DNA of 32,000 nucleotides from Candidatus Saccharimonadota bacterium (GCA_002421785.1 DIRZ01000003.1:218698-250697), one strand, 5' to 3'. Positions 7,687-30,128 are shown, numbered from the stretch's first letter. Translations and numbers: made by a program. The notes: generated by a model from the sequence alone, not told the origin.

Positions 7687-8128
7687 TGTCTGGTTTCTCC
7701 TCCACAAGCGTCCTAAATGCAGTGCCGAGCACTCCATTTATAAACTTGCTTGAGTTATCAGAACCAAATGCTTTGGCGAGTTCAACAGCTTCGTTGATAG
7801 CGACCTTCGGCGGTACTTTATCACCACGGAAGAGTAGTTCATACAAGCCCAGCCGCAATACAGTACGATCAATACGAGAAATCTGCTCAATCGGCCATTC
7901 TGGCGCAATTGGTTGAATCTTTGCATCGAGACCCGGCTGCTCTTGCACAACGCCAGTCACTAAATCTTTCACGAAATCAGTGTCATCAATCGCCGTTTCG
8001 TATCGCTCTAGGTTACGAGTCAGTACTTCGTCGGCGTCCACAGAAGTATCGCCTGCCTGCAAGCGGAACTCATACTCATACAGAGTTTGAAGTGCGACGA
8101 TGCGTCCTAAGTGACGGTTACTTGCCAT
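7667..8128 (-). CDS. nusB: transcription antitermination factor NusB
   Basis: 153 aa. [13 protein letters not shown]...[12 protein letters not shown]...FINGVLG are typical NusB blocks. Confidence 0.9.
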
Positions 8129-8179
8129 TGTCTCTTGGTTCTTTCTTTGTTAATATCCACCCTAACAGAGGTAGACGTG

Positions 8180-8356
8180 CTACTTCTTGGTAACGGTTTC
8201 TTTTTTGACTGCTTTAAGCTTTTTGCCAGTTTCGTTCTTGGTTGTCTTAACCTTGACAGGTGATTTTGCGTTCACACGACGTGCGAGCTCAAGTACAAGG
8301 TGGCTGCGGCGTAGACCGGTTTTGCGCGGGCTCGACTGCTTCTTTGGCTGTGCCAT
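8180..8356 (-). CDS. rpmF: 50S ribosomal protein L32 (bL32)
   Basis: 58 aa, below the ORF-track cutoff. MAQPKKQSSPRKTGLRRSHLVL has the bL32 RRSH motif. AAGGAG SD upstream. Confidence 0.8.
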   Translation of the reverse strand: MAQPKKQSSPRKTGLRRSHLVLELARRVNAKSPVKVKTTKNETGKKLKAVKKETVTKK

Positions 8357-8397
8357 GAAATGTTCTCCTTTTTCGGATTCTAATAAAACTTAGTGTT

Positions 8398-8426
8398 ATT
8401 ATACCTCAGTTTGACTGGCAACTCAA
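8398..8426 (-). promoter_or_regulatory. promoter of rpmF-nusB cluster
   Basis: Minus strand: TTGAGT (8426-8421), 17 nt, TATAAT (8403-8398). Confidence 0.55.
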
Positions 8427-8462
8427 TACATTGACAAATATTAGTTATAGCGCTTATGTATA

Positions 8463-8491
8463 TTGACTTATAGTAATACTTATGCTATAAT
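8463..8491 (+). promoter_or_regulatory. consensus promoter of small cassette B
   Basis: TTGACT (8463-8468), 17-nt spacer ending in TGc, TATAAT (8486-8491). Confidence 0.65.
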
Positions 8492-8545
8492 GTTATTGTT
8501 AGGCACTTCGTCTAACCCTCGTACTTCCCCAATCCGAAGGAAAAC

Positions 8546-19510: not shown

Positions 19511-19585
19511 GCGGGTATCGTATAACGGCTATTATGCTACCTTCCCAAGGTAGAAACGAGAGTTCGACTCTCTCTACCCGCACCA
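19511..19585 (+). tRNA. tRNA-Gly (anticodon CCC), CCA encoded
   Basis: Acceptor GCGGGTA/TACCCGC, anticodon arm CTACC-TTCCCAA-GGTAG, T arm GAGAG-TTCGACT-CTCTC. TGgTATAAT extended -10 at 19492-19500. Confidence 0.85.
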
Positions 19586-19607
19586 AATCGGAACTAGAAC
19601 GGAAATT

Positions 19608-19634
19608 GTGGCGCGAATGTGCCGCTTTTTCTTT
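19608..19634 (+). terminator. intrinsic terminator after tRNA-Gly(CCC)
   Basis: GTGGCGC / GTGCCGC 7-bp stem (two G-U), GAAT loop, then TTTTTCTTT. Confidence 0.6.
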
Positions 19635-19749
19635 AGCCGCGCCGCCTGTCCGCCGCATGAGGACACATCCCACCAGCCGTCCCCTTTGCCTTTTTCTGAG
19701 ATTTCCCCCGCCGAATTTATTTTTTAGCTGAAAAGGGATTGGCGGGTGG
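19635..19749 (+). repeat. left copy of ~115-nt inverted repeat bracketing the islet
   Basis: 19681-19749 is identical (69/69) to the reverse complement of 21981-22049. About 103/115 nt match overall by hand alignment. Confidence 0.9.
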
Positions 19750-19897
19750 GTGCGGTGTCGCTTTAGCGACATTGGCAGGTCGCTATATTTACTAGATATA
19801 GTGCGTATTTTCGATGTTCTTGACGGATATGATATTATGAATATGAGGTAGATGGTATCTTGTACCTTGCAAATAGCAATAATTAAAGGGAGGGCGT

Positions 19898-20515
19898 ATG
19901 AAAATATTAAAAAATAAACTCATTGGCGCAGTCGTAGCGATAGCTGCACTGTGTTTATTCCCGACGAGTAGTGCGTTTGCAGCGACACCGCTTTTCGGAT
20001 ACAAATATCAAAATGGCGTAGGAAGCATAAACGCCTGGATCAATTACGGATCGGGTGTTGGATACTGGCAAACTTATATCAACGGAGCAACAAATAATTG
20101 GATGTACACAGGCTGGGCGAACCCAGTCTATATTAATTATGTGAGCAGTAATTATGGCTCCAATTTGGATTTTCACCAGAATAATAATGCTTATTTCATG
20201 TCCCCTCCTGGTACAGTTACTCTCGCATGGACTAGGTTCTTCAATGGCAGTGGAATTGAAATCTACCCATGGAACGCAAACTGGTATTACGCAGAAGTCC
20301 ATATTAATAATGATGCCTATAGGGATCCTGGCTTTTCTAATAGCCAAGCACAAGGCACTACAACTCACGAAGTTGGTCATGCTCTCGGCCTCGCTCACTA
20401 CAATACTAATCCCTATAGCATAATGTGCCAGACGTACCCTGGCCCGGGTGTTCCGGGCAGAGCCGTACAGACCGTTCAAAAAGTTGATAATGACGCGATA
20501 AATAGCCTGTATTAA
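19898..20515 (+). CDS. secreted matrixin-like metzincin zinc protease (catalytic domain only)
   Basis: Signal peptide MKILKNKLIGAVVAIAALCLFPTSSAFA. HEVGHALGLAH (HExxHxxGxxH). Met-turn SIMCQTY. C-terminal VDNDAINSLY resembles the MMP/karilysin DDxxGIQxLYG ending. Strong SD AAAGGGAGG. Confidence 0.8.
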   Translation: MKILKNKLIGAVVAIAALCLFPTSSAFAATPLFGYKYQNGVGSINAWINYGSGVGYWQTYINGATNNWMYTGWANPVYINYVSSNYGSNLDFHQNNNAYFMSPPGTVTLAWTRFFNGSGIEIYPWNANWYYAEVHINNDAYRDPGFSNSQAQGTTTHEVGHALGLAHYNTNPYSIMCQTYPGPGVPGRAVQTVQKVDNDAINSLY

Positions 20516-20531
20516 TAAAAGGAAGGAAGTC

Positions 20532-21284
20532 ATGGACATGGTAAAAAATACTAACCAAAAAATGAGTAAGCCAAAGATATACACGCTCGCAATTGCAGTT
20601 GTGCTGGCAGTGGGTGGAGTCGCGTCATACGTGTTAATCTCATCTCATACCGCAAATGACCAGACGAATAAGAGGGGGCAAGTTGTGGTGGCGCAGCAAG
20701 GAGATAGAGAGTATAACGCATATGCAAGCATTTCTGACAGTGACATTCAACGCACAGGAAGTGATGTTGACTTTATGTGGAAGCCTGAGCTATATCCCAT
20801 TGTGGCACTAGTTCATATTGATTCGATTGATGGTGGGCGAACGTACAGTCCGGTTTATGAGCAATATGTCGCTCCGCATACCTATGGCAAGATGACTGTT
20901 AAAGAAGCATACCGTGGCGATGTAAAGCTCGGACAAGAATTGAACTACGCGCGTCTTGGTGGAACAGTGACGTATGAAGACTACTGGAAGAGTCTGAATA
21001 AACAGCAGCAAGATAAGATTCTTCACTTGAATAATGGTAAGCAACCTGCCCACAAAAAATATGTTAAGGCCACAATCTCCGATGACATTGATATAGAGTC
21101 GGGCAAGGACTATGTCGCTTTTATTTCGCCGCAATCTTCTAAGGACGGAAAAGTTACAGAATATATCATTGGCGGATACCAGCTCGGCCTTAGAGAAGTT
21201 AAGGGATCGGGTGCCGATGCTACAGTCCTCAATAATAGCACTAAGCAGTGGGATAAACTAGATAGTGTCATAAAACAAGACTAA
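20532..21284 (+). CDS. hypothetical N-terminally membrane-anchored 250-aa protein, co-transcribed with the protease
   Basis: 16-nt gap after the protease stop with AAGGAAGGA SD. TM segment IYTLAIAVVLAVGGVASYVLI. No motif recognised. Confidence 0.65.
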   Translation: MDMVKNTNQKMSKPKIYTLAIAVVLAVGGVASYVLISSHTANDQTNKRGQVVVAQQGDREYNAYASISDSDIQRTGSDVDFMWKPELYPIVALVHIDSIDGGRTYSPVYEQYVAPHTYGKMTVKEAYRGDVKLGQELNYARLGGTVTYEDYWKSLNKQQQDKILHLNNGKQPAHKKYVKATISDDIDIESGKDYVAFISPQSSKDGKVTEYIIGGYQLGLREVKGSGADATVLNNSTKQWDKLDSVIKQD

Positions 21285-21327
21285 CTGCTTCCTATCTATC
21301 TAAGAGTAGCGTAGTAGATAAAAATAC

Positions 21328-21365
21328 AAATAGAAATGAGCGGCACTAGCCGCTCATTTCTATTT
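21328..21365. terminator. bidirectional hairpin terminator inside the islet
   Basis: Perfect 17-bp stem AAATAGAAATGAGCGGC / GCCGCTCATTTCTATTT with loop ACTA. Confidence 0.75.
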
Positions 21366-21457
21366 AGTAGCCTTAGCCTCTAATTAAAGACACTAAACTC
21401 TTGCAGTCCGTCTCTTGTCATTTTTGAGTGGAATTAATTTGTGTTGACTTCCACCCA

Positions 21458-21835
21458 CTAACATTCTTTTACGAGACCAAGCAGTTGTTCTGAGAGTTGC
21501 TCTAGTTCCTTGCTGGTAAGCTTATCAGTACTATACGGCCTGACGCCGAACGGCGTCTTCTCAGTATGATGCTCGATATTGTCAATATTGTCAATATTCT
21601 TGCCTCCTTGTAAAGCACTAATGATATTTGAAAGCGTGTCCTTGTTCTCAAGATCGGAGTTTTCGTATTTACTTAGATTCTTCTCATCTACTGAATTGTC
21701 AGTTTATTTTACTGTTTGGTTTGACTGCTTGCCTACAAAGTAGGCTGCGCCGAGGCATGTACCCACAAAAGCAGGCAGATAACGGCTCAGATTAATATAA
21801 GCTGTTGACTTGTCAATTGTTATTTTACTAGACAT
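21458..21835 (-). pseudogene. 126-codon reading frame interrupted by one in-frame TAA (43-aa TM peptide plus 81-aa hydrophilic continuation)
   Basis: Checked codon by codon. ATG 21835 gives MSSKITIDKSTAYINLSRYLPAFVGTCLGAAYFVGKQSNQTVK, then TAA (21706-21704). The same frame stays open (TDNSVDEKNLSKYEN...LLGLVKEC) to TAG 21460-21458. TATAAT lies at 21860-21855. Confidence 0.45.
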
Positions 21836-21980
21836 GTAGAATACTCTTTTTCGGATTATACGTTTCTATATTCCATATTATACAACTGTAGTTAATCACA
21901 TAATCTACATGATAAGGAGGCGTAGCGCGTCGGCTACGCCGACTAGAGCCGCGCTGCCTCTGCCATTTATGGCAAGCGAA

Positions 21981-22095
21981 CCACCCGCCAATCCCTTTTC
22001 AGCTAAAAAATAAATTCGGCGGGGGAAATCTCAGAAAAAGGCAAAGGGGGCGGCTGGTGGGGCGCGTCCAGCTTTGCTGGACAGACGGCGCGGCT
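21981..22095 (-). repeat. right copy of ~115-nt inverted repeat bracketing the islet
   Basis: Reverse complement matches 19635-19749 (perfect 69-nt core). Weaker similarity continues inward to about 21956. Confidence 0.9.
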
Positions 22096-22203
22096 CAGAG
22101 ATTAGTTTTTGTGTTAAAATGGGTTCGAGCTTTGGAATACAGAGCCACCAATATAAAACCCCCACCGACGTGAGGGCTTTATATTATACAGCCAATAGTT
22201 AGG

Positions 22204-27120: not shown

Positions 27121-28718
27121 TATGCAGTCTCCTTTTCGTCATACAGTGCGGCATACACGCCGTTTGTCCATCCAAATCCATCTTGCAGCGGATACTCCCC
27201 GCCACCAGCTAAATCGCCAGGCTGGATAACGTTGTACTTTTCAATCATTTTGCGTTTTTCTTCAAACACTTTATCGCAGTTGTCTAGCCAGCGCCTACGT
27301 ATCTCATCCGCCAAATGATGGTACCCGTATTCACGAAGCCCTTGTATGGCAATCCACTGGAGCGGCGCCCACCCGTTTGGCGAATCCCACTGTTGCAAGT
27401 TGCTCGTGAGTGTTGTAACAAGCCCGCCATCGCACAGAAACTTCTGCTCGAGTTGACGAGCAACCGCCGCTGCTTGCTCGCTCGTAGCAATCTTCGCGTA
27501 GAGTGGGTACACCCCTGCTAGCGTAAGCCTGCCAGCACTCTTACCTTCACGGAAATCATAGTCACAATAAAATTCGCGCTCAGCGTCCCAGCAGTACTGA
27601 CGAATCGCCTCTGCTCGTTTTTCGGCGGCACGCAAAAACCGCTTGGCAAGTAGTGGTTGCTTGATGAGCGTATAGGCTTCGGCGATCGTAAGTTCGTGCA
27701 GGTAGAGAAGCGAATTTAAGTCTACGGGAACCATATCGGTTGTGTGGATGCTTTGAATATCAGATGCCTTGCGGAACCAACGGGAACTAAAGTCCCAGCC
27801 GCTCTCAGCGCCAGCACGAAGGTCGAGGAATATCTTGTCCTTGTTTGTATCTTGAGCGTGCGTCGCCGTTTCTAGGTCTTCCCGGCGTGATTCGGGCCGA
27901 GGTGTCGTTTTGTTATCGAAATAGCGATTTAATACGATGCCATTCGGCATACGAACAACCCGCGCATATGCAGGTTTGTCGGCGTGCTCCATGACAGCTT
28001 TTCGCCCTTTCATCCAAAAACGGTATTCTGTAAGCAATGCAGGCAGAAACTCGGCATACGTCCTGGTTCGCCCTCGGTGCTTAGCGAGTAATTTTACCAT
28101 TCGACTAAAAAATGGTGGCTGCGATCTGCTCAGAAAGTAATTGCGATTAGCCGTGGGAATAAACCCAAACTTACGGAGCATATACGCATAGTTTTTCATC
28201 ATGCCGTGCATCATCGACCATTCATTATCAGCGGCAAGTCCGAGCATAATAAAATAGCTATCCCAGTAGAACTGCTCGCTAAACCGCCCTCCCGGTACGA
28301 CATAGGGGTACGGTAGCGGCAACAACGTTCCCCGTAGACGCCGGTTGCGCCGGGTCAGCTCGGGCCACAACCTCGTTACGTGTTCACGCGCCGACGTCTC
28401 CGGACCAGGCTCGTACGGTTTATGCGCATGGGGGTGGTATTGGTAGAAATGCTCATCCACAAACGTATTCAAGTTAAAATCAGGCTGCTGCCTGGCTACG
28501 CGATATTGCTGCTGTATGCTACGAGATTTTTTACGCGGCACCATATCGATAAACGTCTTGCCGTCAGAATAGACGTTTGATACCTGCACGTCATGAAATA
28601 GTTCCGAGTAGGACTCGTCCGGGCTTTTGCCTGTCGGCATCACAACCCCAGCTGTCGCGACAACTGTTGATTTGACTTTCTCAAGCTTCGGTTTTTTTAC
28701 AAACAGTCGGCGCAACAT
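27120..28718 (-). CDS. treA: alpha,alpha-trehalase (GH37)
   Basis: Trehalase signatures PGGRFSEQFYWDSYF and QWDSPNGWAPLQ, plus DGKTFIDMVP. Confidence 0.9.
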   Translation of the reverse strand: MLRRLFVKKPKLEKVKSTVVATAGVVMPTGKSPDESYSELFHDVQVSNVYSDGKTFIDMVPRKKSRSIQQQYRVARQQPDFNLNTFVDEHFYQYHPHAHKPYEPGPETSAREHVTRLWPELTRRNRRLRGTLLPLPYPYVVPGGRFSEQFYWDSYFIMLGLAADNEWSMMHGMMKNYAYMLRKFGFIPTANRNYFLSRSQPPFFSRMVKLLAKHRGRTRTYAEFLPALLTEYRFWMKGRKAVMEHADKPAYARVVRMPNGIVLNRYFDNKTTPRPESRREDLETATHAQDTNKDKIFLDLRAGAESGWDFSSRWFRKASDIQSIHTTDMVPVDLNSLLYLHELTIAEAYTLIKQPLLAKRFLRAAEKRAEAIRQYCWDAEREFYCDYDFREGKSAGRLTLAGVYPLYAKIATSEQAAAVARQLEQKFLCDGGLVTTLTSNLQQWDSPNGWAPLQWIAIQGLREYGYHHLADEIRRRWLDNCDKVFEEKRKMIEKYNVIQPGDLAGGGEYPLQDGFGWTNGVYAALYDEKETA

Positions 28719-28726
28719 ATGTTGTC

Positions 28727-28755
28727 ATTATAATGCTTATGTACCCCAGTCACAA
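28727..28755 (-). promoter_or_regulatory. leaderless-type promoter of the trehalase operon
   Basis: Minus strand: TTGTGA (28755-28750), 17 nt, TATAAT (28732-28727), then 8 nt to ATG 28718. No SD. Confidence 0.55.
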
Positions 28756-28925
28756 GGGCTGCACAATTACCAAAAATCACCTTTACAATGCATAACGCTC
28801 ATGCTAGAGTAATGACATAAAGGTGTAAAAATCAAAACAAAGGGGAAGTCACATGAAAACAAAACGCATACCTATTGTATTCGTCGATAACACTGCAGTT
28901 ATTGCACTTCGATAATACACTTCAT

Positions 28926-28956
28926 AAATCGCGCCCTCGTCGACTTGGCGCGATTT
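28926..28956. terminator. hairpin terminator downstream of the GT4 gene
   Basis: AAATCGCGCC / GGCGCGATTT 10-bp stem with 11-nt loop and T-rich flanks. Confidence 0.55.
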
Positions 28957-30128
28957 TATTTGCTTGCTCGTTTTATAGCTTGCTCATACCGCTCAATATA
29001 GGCCTTAGCCATCGTATCAACCGAAAACTTGTCTTCGACGCTCTTTCGGCAGACTTCGGGATCAATTTCGCCGACTCGTTTGATGTACTGCGCAAACTCA
29101 GCTTCCGTATCTGCGATAAACCCATTCACTCCATGTTCAATAATTTCGGGAACAGCACCCCTATTCATGGCGACCACGGGCGTGCCGCAAGCCAACGCCT
29201 CAATCATCACCATACCAAATGGCTCTTCCCAATCGATAGGAAATAGCAACGCTTTGGCTTCAGAGAGCAGCTTCATCTTCCGCTTCCCCGCCACATTGCC
29301 CAGAAATGTAATCCGCGGGTTGGCTATAGTAAATGGTAAAATCTTGTCACTGTAATACCGAAAGTCTGGATCCTTTCGGTACTTACTGAGCGGGTTAGCG
29401 AGTTCCAACATTAAGCGTGCTGGCGTACTAATGTCCACGACGCTCCCTGCCATGCGTAGACGAAACCGCTGTTTCACCGCATATTTCACCGCAATATGCT
29501 GGCCCTTTGCCTGCGTGAAACGTCCGAGCGTCATAAAATAATTCTTCTTCTTTTCGACAAACGGAAAATCACGAACATCAACGGCATTATATACCGTTGG
29601 CAAGAGTGACTCCCGAATTTCAGTCGGTACATTCGACACCATTGAGTCGGAAATATCCACTAGTGAAAGCTTCTTAGGTGACCCGAGCTGTTTCCACATC
29701 GGGCGATTGCTCGGCCACTCATCTTCGTCCTTCATTGTAGGCGAGAATTGTAGCCCATGAAGCGTATGAACGACAGGTGGCGTTCCCTCAACCTGCGTTG
29801 CCCATTTACAGTACATGGGGCCAAGCTGTCCGTTATGGTCATGAATCACATCAAACCCGCCATCTTCGCGTATCAATCGCAGCGCGTTTTCGATATGAGC
29901 GAGGAGTATGGGCATAGATTCAAAGAGTGGGCGGTAGATGTGAGGATACTGCTCGGTTTTGTAGAGCGAGTACACCTTTACACCGTGCAAGCTCCTCTGA
30001 GCCACGCCAAACATTTCAACTTCAACACCATTATCGACAAGTCCCCTGACGAGCCCATCGACCACCGCTTCAATGCCACCATAGCCTTCCGGTGGAACAC
30101 GTATCCAGGGTGTAGAAATAACTGCCAC
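28956..30128 (-). CDS. GT4-family glycosyltransferase
   Basis: 390 aa. GGIEAVVDGL N-terminal glycine motif and EPFGMVMIEALACGTPVVA (E-x7-E region). Confidence 0.8.
   Translation of the reverse strand: MAVISTPWIRVPPEGYGGIEAVVDGLVRGLVDNGVEVEMFGVAQRSLHGVKVYSLYKTEQYPHIYRPLFESMPILLAHIENALRLIREDGGFDVIHDHNGQLGPMYCKWATQVEGTPPVVHTLHGLQFSPTMKDEDEWPSNRPMWKQLGSPKKLSLVDISDSMVSNVPTEIRESLLPTVYNAVDVRDFPFVEKKKNYFMTLGRFTQAKGQHIAVKYAVKQRFRLRMAGSVVDISTPARLMLELANPLSKYRKDPDFRYYSDKILPFTIANPRITFLGNVAGKRKMKLLSEAKALLFPIDWEEPFGMVMIEALACGTPVVAMNRGAVPEIIEHGVNGFIADTEAEFAQYIKRVGEIDPEVCRKSVEDKFSVDTMAKAYIERYEQAIKRASK

What the first reader, a model, noticed from the sequence alone, without database searches (positions are those of the whole stretch)
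19635..22095. AT-rich ~2.2-kb islet bracketed by ~115-bp inverted repeats beside tRNA-Gly(CCC), carrying a secreted protease module
Seen in the sequence:
- 19635-19749 and 21981-22095 are inverted copies, with a 69/69 identical core and roughly 103/115 identity by hand alignment.
- The left copy begins on the nucleotide after the tRNA-Gly(CCC) terminator. The right copy lies just downstream of the DUF4342/SPFH/ddl transcription unit.
- The DNA between the repeats is visibly more AT-rich than the flanks. I estimate about 40 vs 50 percent GC, not computed.
- It has its own expression signals: promoter-like TTGACG-16-TATGAG at 19820-19847, strong SDs and a 17-bp-stem bidirectional terminator.
- Cargo: a signal-peptide matrixin-like protease, a tightly linked unknown membrane-anchored 250-aa protein, and an opposite-strand small TM ORF broken by TAA.
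- No integrase, transposase or invertase lies inside.

Inference: this is a horizontally acquired cargo module. Either it was mobilised in trans through the repeats (composite or non-autonomous element) or it can be flipped by recombination between them. In a putative epibiont, a secreted protease module is a candidate host-interaction system. I consider this the best candidate for an undescribed system in the window.
Basis: partly seen in the sequence, partly recalled or inferred. Interest (0 to 1): 0.8.

Follow-up and report, generated by a model that had tools for sequence, protein, structure and literature searches.

The report
Decayed serine-recombinase island at tRNA-Gly
The AT-rich islet is the cargo compartment of a small mobile island inserted at the CCA end of tRNA-Gly(CCC) in a Saccharibacteria genome: it belongs to an apparently undescribed family whose complete members carry a large serine recombinase and unusually long, structured inverted repeats, but this copy has no recombinase and is decaying.

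Summary
There are 115-nt inverted repeats (90% identical, 69-nt exact core). The DNA between them is 42.4% GC against 49.6% elsewhere, and it is the strongest tetranucleotide outlier in the window.

The transposon or invertible-segment interpretation is only partly right.

- **Variable site.** Strains with 97-99% identical flanks carry either a 43-nt palindromic scar or four unrelated cargos at this exact site.
- **Repeat family.** The repeats are copies of a roughly 150-250-nt multi-helix module with strong covariation and no Rfam match. I found about 60 copies in 44 metagenome loci, mostly as convergent pairs around 1-3.5 kb of very diverse cargo.
- **Recombinase link.** In at least 12 loci one arm abuts a large serine recombinase gene that runs into the 3' end of a tRNA gene. 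The far arm ends in a pseudo-tRNA 3' half (…GCACCA). These are tRNA-CCA-integrating islands that hold an internal inverted copy of their own predicted attP.
- **The window copy.** It has no recombinase in 32 kb, 10% arm divergence and a CAA>TAA nonsense mutation. I read it as a relic.
- **Cargo.** It is a conserved three-gene cassette: a secreted metzincin, a β-rich partner and a small membrane protein. The protease-partner pair is shared with Micrococcaceae.

What the arm structure does remains unresolved.

The parts
19511..19585 (+). tRNA-Gly(CCC). Its 3' GCACCA end is the inferred integration point (attL side).
   Evidence: ARAGORN and Rfam. Complete islands abut tRNA 3' ends in the same way.
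19586..19634 (+). 'T module': a linker (AATCGGAACTAGAACGGAAATT), a terminator hairpin at 19608-19625 and a U-run. It is island-derived sequence that follows the tRNA CCA.
   Evidence: It matches the T module next to the tRNA and next to the recombinase leader in L018 at 95% over window 19581-19642 (62 nt). It is absent from the naive tRNA-Gly site in L020. The terminator scan finds the hairpin.
19635..19783 (+). Left ('b-type') arm. P1-5' 19635-19647; P2 19648-19664; P3 19669-19749 with the conserved apical CCCCCGCCGA…AGCTGA; P4 GTGTCGCTTTAGCGACA 19756-19771; degenerate P1-3'.
   Evidence: Covariance-model hit of 150 bits. Covariation. About 90% identical to the tRNA-side arm of L025.
19820..19847 (+). 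Weak promoter-like TTGACG-16-TATGAG, followed by a GGGAGG ribosome-binding site.
   Evidence: Read from the sequence. It is not reported by the consensus scan.
19898..20515 (+). Secreted metzincin, matrixin-like, 205 aa. Sec-type signal peptide …SSAFA|A, HEVGHALGLAH motif, Met-turn SIM.
   Evidence: Pfam PF00413 at 30.4 bits against a cut-off of 24. Weak PDB matches to MMP catalytic domains around the motif. Homologues occur in Saccharibacteria and at 56-61% identity in Micrococcaceae.
20532..21284 (+). Membrane-anchored 250-aa partner protein, always linked to the protease. β-rich ectodomain.
   Evidence: Adjacent to the protease in L009, L015, L052 and in Sinomonas L086. AF2 mean pLDDT 75.6. 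Weak Foldseek hits to NTR/TIMP-type modules.
21327..21366 (.). 17-18-bp hairpin terminator shared by the two convergent transcription units.
21457..21835 (-). Pseudogene of a 148-aa membrane protein with an in-frame TAA at 21704-21706 (Gln in the orthologue). The frame's own stop codon (TAG) is at 21457-21459.
   Evidence: 70% identity to the intact L052 ORF 12228-12674 across the stop codon.
21916..21947 (-). H5/H6 hairpins (GTCGGCGTAGCCGAC, GCGCTACGC) conserved after a-type arms. An extended -10 (TGTATAAT) lies about 40 nt further downstream.
   Evidence: The same module follows a-type arms and precedes the recombinase genes in other loci.
21948..22097 (-). Right ('a-type') arm: a complete four-helix module (P1 closed, P2, P3, P4 TGCCATAAATGGCA).
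   Evidence: Covariance-model hit of 167 bits. Fold z-score -4.5. Covariation.
22098..22150 (-). 'U' extension of the arm (hp2, CGAACC, hp1, TGGTG). On the + strand it reads as a pseudo-tRNA 3' half, GGGTTCGAGC…GAGCCACCA, ending at 22150. This is the inferred attR.
   Evidence: Conserved upstream of almost all arms and ending in TGGTG.

Best explanation
**What it is.** The islet (19586-22150) is a recombinase-less, decaying member of a family of very small integrative islands in Saccharibacteria.

**Architecture of complete members.** They read: tRNA gene, T module, large serine recombinase (LSR) gene convergent with the tRNA, LSR leader, inverted T, TGGTG, arm, 1-3.5 kb of cargo, inverted arm, and a pseudo-tRNA 3' half ending GCACCA.

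**How I infer it works.**
- The LSR integrates a circular form at the GCACCA end of CCA-encoding tRNA genes.
- The tRNA-T junction is attL. The pseudo-tRNA half joined to the old tRNA flank is attR.
- The middle of the island is an inverted copy of the predicted attP (pseudo-tRNA half, core, T).
- That inverted copy makes both the recombinase compartment and the cargo compartment bounded by inverted repeats.

The 115-nt inverted repeats are the shared part (P1-5', P2, P3) of the two arms of the cargo compartment.

**History of this copy (inferred).** The LSR compartment has been lost, so the b arm is fused directly to the T module of tRNA-Gly(CCC). The arms have drifted to 90% identity and one cargo gene carries a nonsense mutation. 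The copy can now change only by homologous replacement or by a recombinase supplied in trans.

**Cargo.** The cargo is a self-contained cassette with its own promoters and terminator: a secreted metzincin, its conserved partner and a small membrane protein.

**Shown versus inferred.** Shown: the anatomy, the family, the presence/absence polymorphism, the LSR linkage and the covariation. Inferred: the recombination chemistry, the crossover position, the loss of the LSR, and any role of the arm structure.
For: **1. Same site, different content in near-identical strains**
- Scar only: L041, L022, L033.
- NTP-transferase/NUDIX/HIT cargo: L025-28.
- Methyltransferase plus helicase: L017.
- PPDK_N protein plus LSR: L018.
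- Flank identity to the window is 98.4% up to position 22108.

**2. The arm is a family**
- A covariance model built from 5 copies finds about 60 copies in 44 metagenome loci.
- 16 neighbouring pairs are convergent, against 2 divergent and 1 tandem.
- 90% of cells are paired, against 40-59% for slid controls. 21 of 45 pairs show double-sided changes. RNAalifold independently recovers P1-P4.

**3. Recombinase linkage**
- LSR homologues lie outward of an arm in L018, L044, L045, L047, L049/53, L054, L056, L057, L062, L081, L082 and L085.
- They carry Resolvase, Recombinase and Zn_ribbon_recom domains and match A118 integrase at E = 1e-10.
- They abut tRNA-Gly(ccc), Leu(gag), Leu(tag), Gly(tcc) and Leu(taa).

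**4. Junction logic**
- The sequence after the real tRNA's GCACCA matches the sequence after the internal pseudo-half's (G/C)CACCA, over 105 nt in L018, about 90 nt in L049 and the 25 nt of overlap printed in the others, with 1-3 mismatches in L044 and L085.
- The far arm's pseudo-half is joined to unrelated flank.

**5. Age signal**
- Arms are 99.4-100% identical in four LSR-bearing islands for which both arms are fully resolved (L018, L047, L049, L054), 90.7% in L044 and 84-90% in LSR-less ones, the window included.

**6. Foreign composition.**

**7. Cassette moves with its arm.** L052 has the same cassette plus arm elsewhere in a divergent genome.
Against: - No recombinase of this family lies in the 32-kb window, and I could not scan the rest of the 813-kb contig. 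'Loss' rather than 'never had one' is therefore an inference.
- No excised circle, attP or attB junction was observed.
- Many loci are short metagenome contigs that end inside the repeat. Some 100% identical repeats at contig ends could be assembler-inflated.
- L017 deviates from the scheme: a partial arm abuts the tRNA CCA with no T module.
- Three LSR-adjacent arms are a-type, and one cassette (L043) has two a-type arms, so the a/b scheme is not universal.
- LSR att sites are normally about 50 bp. Nothing known about LSRs explains a 150-250-nt covarying multi-helix module or an internal inverted attP.
Confidence: 0.65

Rival explanations
1. The arm is a structured RNA: a cis-regulatory leader or small RNA of the cassette genes. 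The two 'inverted repeats' would simply be two copies, each pointing into the genes it controls. This reading could coexist with the island model.
For: - There is strong covariation in four helices, plus hp1, hp2, H5 and H6 by inspection.
- The right arm folds with z = -4.5.
- In the window and in L025, each arm lies upstream of and in the sense of a gene set. a-type arms always precede the first cargo gene.
- G·U pairs exceed A·C by 68 to 23 on the modelled strand.
Against: - The best -35/-10 or extended -10 boxes lie downstream of the arm, for example TGTATAAT after H6.
- The arm sits directly behind terminators.
- Many b arms face the 3' end of a gene and have nothing to lead (L018, L017, L049, L054, L081).
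- No Rfam family matches.
- The G·U excess shrinks to 40 against 23 once one column is removed, and the alignment was fitted to that strand.
Confidence: 0.15
2. The cargo is an invertible segment (a phase-variation switch). A recombinase flips it between the inverted repeats, choosing which gene set faces an outside promoter.
For: - Long inverted repeats with a serine recombinase gene next to one arm in relatives is the classical inverton layout.
- The window holds two convergent gene sets between the arms.
- Arms are 100% identical in several islands, as frequent recombination or gene conversion would produce.
Against: - Every cassette seen in two contexts has the same orientation relative to its arms and to the recombinase: L055 and L085; L043, L048 and L082; the window and L052.
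- The three independent assemblies of the window locus agree.
- Each gene set has its own promoter-like signals.
- The enzyme is an integrase-type LSR rather than a small Hin/Gin invertase.
- No recombinase lies in the window.
Confidence: 0.07
3. The islet is a composite or non-autonomous transposon, such as a mobile insertion cassette or a MITE pair. Its terminal inverted repeats would be recognised in trans by a transposase.
For: - Terminal inverted repeats run 115-180 nt and start with TG…CA (TGGTG…CACCA).
- The cargo contains no enzyme.
- There are many copies with diverse cargo.
- One cassette (L079) contains a DDE_Tnp_1 gene.
Against: - No target-site duplication appears at any fully resolved pair.
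- Ends coincide with tRNA CCA ends and pseudo-tRNA halves in direct orientation, which is att-like.
- The recurrent neighbour is an LSR lying outside the arms, not a transposase between them.
- The 'empty' allele retains both arm termini as a palindrome, which a clean insertion would not leave.
- The single DDE gene is one of about 70 cargo families.
Confidence: 0.06
4. The repeat is a generic dispersed intergenic element of REP, BIME or terminator-insulator type. Its position around this cargo would be incidental.
For: - It is multi-copy and occurs at many loci and beside at least 10 different tRNA genes.
- Some copies have no partner within 3-7 kb (L064, L080, L073, L050).
- Some enclosed genes look like housekeeping genes, for example aaRS-like genes.
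Against: - There is a strong orientation rule: 16 convergent against 2 divergent and 1 tandem.
- Most pairs are built from two distinct end types.
- Copies are tied to strain-variable content and to an LSR.
- There is no other copy in the 32-kb window.
- The core 20-mer is absent from 185,579 species-representative genomes except for two chance hits.
Confidence: 0.04

Closest known systems
Integrative elements and prophages that use large serine recombinases (phage A118, φC31, Bxb1, TP901-1; Tn4451 TnpX; SCCmec Ccr)
   Same: - The associated enzyme has the Resolvase, Recombinase and Zn-ribbon architecture and matches A118 integrase.
- The element is site-specific, with a very short shared core (GCACCA) at both junctions and no long direct repeats.
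- The recombinase gene sits at one end of the element.
   Different: - The target is the 3' CCA end of several different tRNA genes. From my own knowledge and the Islander abstract (PMC4383910), tRNA targets are typical of tyrosine integrases.
- The islands are tiny, about 3-5 kb.
- They contain an internal inverted copy of the predicted attP, so both compartments are bounded by inverted repeats.
- The arms are 150-250 nt with conserved secondary structure.
- The window copy has no recombinase.
tRNA/tmRNA-integrated genomic islands (Islander-type, tyrosine integrase)
   Same: - The island sits directly after a tRNA gene.
- A displaced pseudo 3' half of a tRNA marks the far end in direct orientation.
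- The site is a strain-variable hotspot, and scars and serial replacements occur.
   Different: - The enzyme family is serine, not tyrosine.
- The crossover appears to lie at or after the CCA rather than inside the tRNA body.
- The pseudo-half is only tRNA-like (GGTTCG, hairpin, CACCA), not a copy of the target tRNA.
- The inverted-repeat architecture is not a feature of these islands.
Mobile insertion cassettes and MITE-flanked composite elements (for example Bacillus MIC231 and integron mobilisation units)
   Same: Passenger genes lie between long terminal inverted repeats with no enzyme inside. There are many copies with different cargo.
   Different: There is no target-site duplication. 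No cognate insertion sequence shares the same ends. The ends are att-like junctions at tRNA genes, and the partner enzyme is an LSR outside the repeats.
Invertons and shufflons (Hin/hix, Gin/gix, Type I R-M hsdS invertons)
   Same: Inverted repeats flank a gene-bearing segment with a serine recombinase gene beside it. One allele at this site (L017) carries a DNA methyltransferase system.
   Different: The repeats are 5-10 times longer and structured. The enzyme is integrase-type. I observed no alternative orientation.
Folded single-strand recombination sites (integron attC; CTXφ attP(+) used by XerCD) and the yeast 2-micron plasmid (two inverted repeats that carry the recombination site and separate two unique segments)
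   Same: - An excised circle of a complete island would have two unique segments separated by two inverted copies of the recombination site, as in the 2-micron plasmid.
- A single strand could fold so that the inverted copies form a duplex site, as in CTXφ and attC.
   Different: This is purely a formal analogy. The enzyme families differ (Flp, Xer and IntI are tyrosine recombinases). No single-stranded or circular form has been observed here.
Matrixin/M10 metzincins with TIMP-type inhibitors
   Same: The protease has HExxHxxGxxH, a Met-turn and a Pfam M10 hit. The best fold matches of the partner's model are NTR/TIMP-type modules.
   Different: The fold matches are weak (E at least 6.5e-3, TM 0.2-0.38). 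The partner is membrane-anchored and lacks the free N-terminal Cys that TIMPs use. Its function is untested.

Membership tests
Large-serine-recombinase integrative element | Encodes a serine recombinase with Resolvase, Recombinase and Zn-ribbon domains | tested here: not met
   No homologue lies in the 32-kb window (tblastn; gene table). The feature is met in 12 related loci carrying the same arms. The window copy is therefore at most a derivative, not an autonomous member.
Large-serine-recombinase integrative element | Discrete element bounded by attL/attR that share only a short core with the target | tested here: met
   The boundaries are tRNA-Gly …GCACCA|T module (19585/19586) and pseudo-half …GCCACCA|DUF4342 flank (22150/22151). 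The same junction logic holds in six LSR islands.
Large-serine-recombinase integrative element | Presence/absence polymorphism at the target site | tested here: met
   A scar-only allele (L041, L022), four different occupied alleles, and a naive tRNA-Gly site with an ordinary terminator in L020.
Large-serine-recombinase integrative element | Recombinase-catalysed attP x attB integration and excision | not testable with these tools
   This needs circle-junction reads or biochemistry.
Composite transposon / mobile insertion cassette | Terminal inverted repeats | tested here: met
   115 nt at 90% in the window, and up to 179 nt at 100% in relatives.
Composite transposon / mobile insertion cassette | Target-site duplication flanking the repeats | tested here: not met
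   Flanks outside TGGTG…CACCA show no direct repeat in L049, L054, L047, L044 or the window.
Composite transposon / mobile insertion cassette | A cognate autonomous element whose transposase gene lies between the same ends | tested here: not met
   Among about 30 annotated cargo proteins, only one is a DDE_Tnp_1 gene (L079). The recurrent enzyme is an LSR outside the arms.
Inverton (invertible phase-variation segment) | Both orientations present in populations or strains | tested here: inconclusive
   Assemblies and related loci show only one orientation. No read-level data were available.
Inverton (invertible phase-variation segment) | Adjacent invertase | tested here: not met
   None is present in the window. 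Relatives have an integrase-type LSR.
Known structured RNA family (Rfam 15) | Match to a curated covariance model | tested here: not met
   Only tRNAs reach the gathering threshold. The best sub-threshold hit is sroE at 28 bits against a threshold of 51, which I judge spurious.
Structured RNA in general (membership as an RNA element) | Conserved secondary structure supported by compensatory changes | tested here: met
   Every pair of P2 and P4 covaries, and 97.5-98.5% of cells are paired.
Structured RNA in general (membership as an RNA element) | The element is transcribed | not testable with these tools
   Promoter-like boxes lie downstream of the arms. No expression data were available.
REP/BIME/MITE-type dispersed repeat | Many copies scattered through intergenic regions irrespective of gene content | tested here: inconclusive
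   The repeat is multi-copy and dispersed. However, it follows an orientation rule, is tied to variable cassettes, tRNA ends and LSR genes, and has only one pair in this 32-kb window. No complete genome could be scanned.
Matrixin (Peptidase M10) metzincin | HExxHxxGxxH zinc site, Met-turn, and a Pfam score above the gathering threshold | tested here: met
   HEVGHALGLAH followed by SIM. PF00413 scores 30.4 bits against a cut-off of 24, although only the C-terminal third aligns.

The most novel reading that the evidence does not exclude
The internal inverted copy of attP is the point of the design. A single-stranded copy of the island, for example DNA taken up by the competence/type IV pilus machinery on which Saccharibacteria depend, can fold back on itself. 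T then pairs with inverted T, and arm pairs with inverted arm. This yields a roughly 280-bp fully duplex attP stem with the recombinase and cargo compartments as two loops, a 'dumbbell'. A resident serine recombinase could then integrate ssDNA-borne islands at tRNA CCA ends. The covarying local hairpins would be folding or nucleation elements of that single strand. This would be a serine-recombinase analogue of CTXφ and attC folded-site recombination.
Probability: 0.1. Interest if true: 0.9.

Novelty: new variant of a known kind. Interest (0 to 1): 0.62.

Why it matters
- **A mobile-element design I could not find described.** This work adds miniature serine-recombinase islands that target the CCA end of many tRNA genes. 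They carry an inverted internal attP and long covarying arms. Two literature searches did not turn up a description.
- **Gene flux in small genomes.** The family shows how roughly 1-Mb epibiont genomes with few mobile elements still swap accessory genes at fixed hotspots. At least four alleles occur at one site among strains that are 97-99% identical.
- **A possible genetic tool.** The predicted attB (tRNA …GCACCA), attP and recombinase sequences are explicit. They could be tested as an integration tool for Saccharibacteria, where genetics is only beginning.
- **The arm module.** It is a well-supported new structured nucleic-acid motif whose function, as DNA or RNA, is open.
- **The cargo.** The metzincin-plus-partner pair is shared between Saccharibacteria and Micrococcaceae, which belong to the phylum of their known hosts. 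That makes it a concrete candidate for host-interaction studies. In this particular genome, however, the cassette is already eroding.

Tried and rejected
- **Exact core 20-mer searches.** GAAAAGGGATTGGCGGGTGG gave nothing in viral or metagenome contigs. Its two hits among species-representative genomes (Amphritea, Tunturiibacter) lack the rest of the motif.
- **Riboswitch or 5'-UTR idea.** This was my first hypothesis after seeing compensatory hairpins. I downgraded it once promoters proved to lie downstream of the arms and many arms proved to have no gene to lead.
- **Motif tied to the protease gene.** Rejected. Other protease loci (L009-L016) lack the motif.
- **U region as a true tRNA fragment.** It has GGTTCG, a hairpin and CACCA, but it does not fold or align as a T-arm plus acceptor, and ARAGORN finds nothing there.
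- **'Two independent cassettes inserted tail to tail in a palindromic attB'.** This fits the window and L025 but not L017, L018 or the single-gene cassettes.
- **MAFFT alignment of the divergent L017 arm.** It failed. The covariance model was needed.
- **Strand test by G·U against A·C.** Only weakly informative.
- **sroE hit.** The sub-threshold Rfam hit is spurious.

Full report
**1. Checking the observation**

The two arms are real. They lie at 19635-19749 and 21981-22095, are 115 nt long and 90% complementary, and sit 2231 nt apart. An 81-nt core differs at one base, and no shuffle produces such a match. The window is identical to an 813-kb ENA contig and 99.97% identical to a JGI contig. 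Short Logan contigs break exactly in the 69-nt exact core, as expected of a true repeat.

- tRNA-Phe and tRNA-Gly(CCC) lie just upstream, and the left arm starts after the tRNA-Gly terminator.
- GC between the arms is 42.4% against 49.6% elsewhere. That is lower than any other 2.2-kb window, and the segment is the strongest tetranucleotide outlier.
- The central 17-18-bp terminator is real.
- The proposed promoter sequence is present but weak, and promoter-like sites are not enriched.
- The protease is a signal-peptide metzincin (Pfam M10 at 30.4 bits against a cut-off of 24; HEVGHALGLAH plus a Met-turn). The 250-aa neighbour has no family.
- No Rfam family other than tRNA matches.

**2. The organism and the locus in relatives**

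The neighbouring SPFH protein is identical to one from 'Candidatus Saccharibacteria bacterium 32-49-10'. I fetched the loci of SPFH proteins that are 89-99% identical. The interval between DUF4342 and tRNA-Gly(CCC) turns out to be hypervariable.

| Locus | Content of the interval |
|---|---|
| L041, L022, L033 | About 150 nt centred on a perfect 43-nt palindrome (AGCCGCGCCGCCTGTCCGC-ATGCG-GCGGACAGGCGGCGCGGCT) |
| L025-28 | NTP-transferase and NUDIX on one strand, HIT and a 68-aa ORF on the other, between 120-nt, 88% inverted repeats |
| L017 (flank 98.4% identical to the window up to 22108) | DNA methyltransferase and helicase between 92-nt perfect inverted repeats |
| L018 | PPDK_N-domain gene between 179-nt perfect inverted repeats, followed by a large serine recombinase |
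| L020 (89% relative) | No trace of any of this; an ordinary terminator follows tRNA-Gly |

**3. What the repeat is**

Aligning the copies showed that stems differ in sequence but stay complementary. There is a closing helix P1, a hairpin P2, a long helix P3 with a conserved apical CCCCCGCCGA-N10-11-AGYTGA, and a hairpin P4. Complete copies continue into two more hairpins, H5 and H6.

- A covariance model built from five copies found only the known pair in the window and none in the other protease loci. It recognised the 43-nt palindrome as P1 plus P2 with P3 and P4 deleted.
- A degenerate pattern from the conserved apex retrieved 44 metagenome loci holding about 60 copies.
- On 42 distinct copies, 90% of cells are paired against 40-59% when partners are slid. 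21 of 45 pairs show double-sided changes, and every pair of P2 and P4 covaries. RNAalifold recovers the same helices.
- The excess of G·U over A·C is modest and partly due to one column, so the acting strand is not settled.

**4. Organisation of the family**

- Neighbouring copies are convergent in 16 cases, divergent in 2 and tandem in 1. Spacing is 1.0-3.5 kb.
- Most pairs combine two end types. An 'a-type' arm has a variable P4, a perfect P1, then H5/H6 and a promoter-like region leading into the cargo. A 'b-type' arm has P4 = GTCGCTTTAGCGAC and a degenerate P1. Exceptions exist.
- Cargo is extremely diverse: 73 clusters among 93 ORFs. It includes regulators, glyoxalases, GNAT, CAAX proteases, ABC transporters, EVE, aaRS-like genes and one DDE transposase.
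- Outward, the arms continue through a conserved 'U' region to TGGTG. On the other strand this reads GGTTCG-hairpin-(G/C)CACCA, a pseudo-tRNA 3' half.
- No target-site duplication is present.

**5. The recombinase**

Reading outward from b arms in L018, L044, L049/53, L054 and L062 gave the same conserved series: CACCA, a linker, a terminator hairpin, a U-run, a mini-hairpin, a leader containing an H5/H6-like module, and then an ORF beginning …YVRKS.

- tblastn with the L018 protein found homologues next to arms in 12 loci and none in the window.
- These proteins have Resolvase, Recombinase and Zn-ribbon domains and match A118 integrase.
- Each gene runs into the 3' end of a real tRNA gene: Gly-ccc, Leu-gag, Leu-tag, Gly-tcc (twice) and Leu-taa. 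All of these end in GCACCA.
- The sequence following the tRNA's GCACCA is the same as the sequence following the internal pseudo-half's CACCA, but inverted. It is identical over 105 nt in L018 and about 90 nt in L049. In L081, and with 1-3 mismatches in L044 and L085, it matches over the 25 nt of overlap printed.
- The far arm's pseudo-half is joined to unrelated chromosomal flank.

In att notation:
- tRNA-core-T is attL.
- Pseudo-half-core-flank is attR.
- The centre of the island is an intact, inverted attP (pseudo-half-core-T).

A complete island is therefore: tRNA, T, recombinase compartment, inverted T, then arm, cargo compartment and inverted arm ending in the pseudo-tRNA half. Both compartments are bounded by inverted repeats.

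Arms are 99.4-100% identical in four recombinase-bearing islands for which both arms are fully resolved (L018, L047, L049, L054), 90.7% in L044, and 84-90% in recombinase-less ones.

**6. Where the window copy fits**

In the window and in L025, the b arm is fused directly to the T module of the real tRNA-Gly(CCC). The recombinase compartment and the b arm's U region are missing. The a arm keeps its U region and pseudo-tRNA half, ending at 22150 next to the DUF4342 terminator.

I also see two kinds of collapse scar:
- The 43-nt palindrome of L041 equals P1-5' plus P2 plus P1-3'. This is the product expected if everything between the two arms' P2 hairpins is deleted.
- L048 shows the analogous collapse of the recombinase compartment to linker, terminator hairpin and inverted linker.

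Because local hairpins in inverted arms are direct repeats of each other, such deletions are easy. That is my inference, not something I tested.

The window copy has 10% arm divergence and a CAA>TAA mutation in the 148-aa gene, which is intact in L052 (70% identity). I therefore read it as an old, immobile relic. I cannot exclude a recombinase elsewhere in the genome.

**7. The cargo**

- The protease and its roughly 250-aa partner are a conserved pair. They occur at other sites in Saccharibacteria. In L009 they lie next to tRNA-Gln between 102-nt direct repeats. In L015/16 they lie near relaxase and recombinase genes.
- With the small membrane protein and an a-type arm, the pair also occurs in L052 at a different chromosomal position. 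The whole islet aligns at 72% over 2285 nt.
- Both proteins have 45-61% identical homologues in Arthrobacter, Pseudarthrobacter, Sinomonas and Paenarthrobacter, and they are adjacent in Sinomonas. This points to cross-phylum transfer of unknown direction.
- The partner's AF2 model (pLDDT 75.6, core above 85) is β-rich. Its best PDB matches are NTR/C345C/TIMP modules, but they are weak. An inhibitor- or chaperone-like role is a lead only.

**8. Mechanism and rivals**

I commit to the island model at about 0.65. The anatomy, polymorphism and recombinase linkage are shown. The chemistry is inferred from what large serine recombinases do.

- *Structured RNA leader (0.15).* This rival remains possible and is not exclusive of the island model. 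Against it, promoters lie downstream of the arms and many arms lead nothing.
- *Inversion switch (0.07).* Every orientable cassette lies the same way.
- *Transposon or mobile insertion cassette (0.06).* There are no target duplications and no cognate transposase.
- *Generic REP-like repeat (0.04).* The orientation rule, the variable-cassette association and the recombinase linkage argue against it.

What no known system explains is why a serine-recombinase element keeps an inverted internal attP and a 150-250-nt covarying arm. The most novel reading I cannot exclude, at about 0.1, is that single-stranded copies fold into a duplex-attP dumbbell.

**9. Novelty and limits**

Two full-text searches found no description of such elements in Saccharibacteria. 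Absence from that library is not proof.

Limits of this analysis:
- The loci are mostly short metagenome contigs.
- I scanned no complete genome for copy number.
- I had no read-level or expression data.
- Some perfect repeats at contig ends may be assembler-influenced.

I rate the family as a new variant of a known kind (site-specific integrative islands). The window's islet is an eroded member of it.

Noticed in passing
L009:5261-7095: In a related Saccharibacteria contig, the protease-partner pair (78% identical) sits about 250 nt downstream of tRNA-Gln(CTG). It is bracketed by 102-nt, 99% identical direct repeats that contain the 5' end of a C39-like gene. No arm motif is present, which suggests a different insertion mechanism for the same cargo.
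   Followed up: partly
L020:8193-8390: A perfect 68-nt direct repeat duplicates the 3' half of tRNA-Phe plus its flank. It looks like an att-type scar from another integrative element beside the same tRNA cluster.
   Followed up: no
L048:11598-11680: Between the CCA of tRNA-Val(GAC) and the arm's TGGTG lies a perfect palindrome: linker, GCCGCCCTCGCGGGCGGC, inverted linker. I interpret it as a collapsed recombinase compartment. It parallels the 43-nt palindrome scar in L041 and L022.
   Followed up: partly
L018:11285-11464 (also L049, L062, L085, L044): The recombinase ORFs read through the T module and into the antisense strand of the tRNA gene. The last 35 or so codons of the recombinase are therefore encoded by the same 105 nt that are repeated, inverted, upstream of the gene.
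   Followed up: partly
window:20532-21284: The 250-aa partner of the metzincin gives weak but consistent fold matches to NTR/C345C/TIMP modules (E 6.5e-3 to 0.2). Together with the protease, it is conserved in Micrococcaceae, the phylum of known Saccharibacteria hosts.
   Followed up: partly
L054:3226-4359; L081:3748-5091: Some arm-bounded cassettes carry aminoacyl-tRNA-synthetase-like genes: a PheRS-α-like gene with an FDX-ACB domain, and a class IIb enzyme. These could be extra or resistant aaRS copies moving as cargo.
   Followed up: no
L032-L037 (contig ends 100-300 nt after DUF4342): Many short-read assemblies of close relatives stop just past DUF4342, at the start of the arm. This fits a repeat or a strain-variable junction, and it warns that such islands are systematically lost from MAGs.
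   Followed up: no
window:3251-4000, 8001-8500, 28501-29250: These are other short GC dips (0.42-0.45) in the window. None is as long or as deep as the islet, and none contains an arm copy by covariance-model search.
   Followed up: no
L015:13128-16576 / L016: Another protease-partner locus lies 4-7 kb from DUF3768, Replic_Relax and a second large serine recombinase (530 aa). This suggests that the same cargo also travels on a different, larger mobile element.
   Followed up: no
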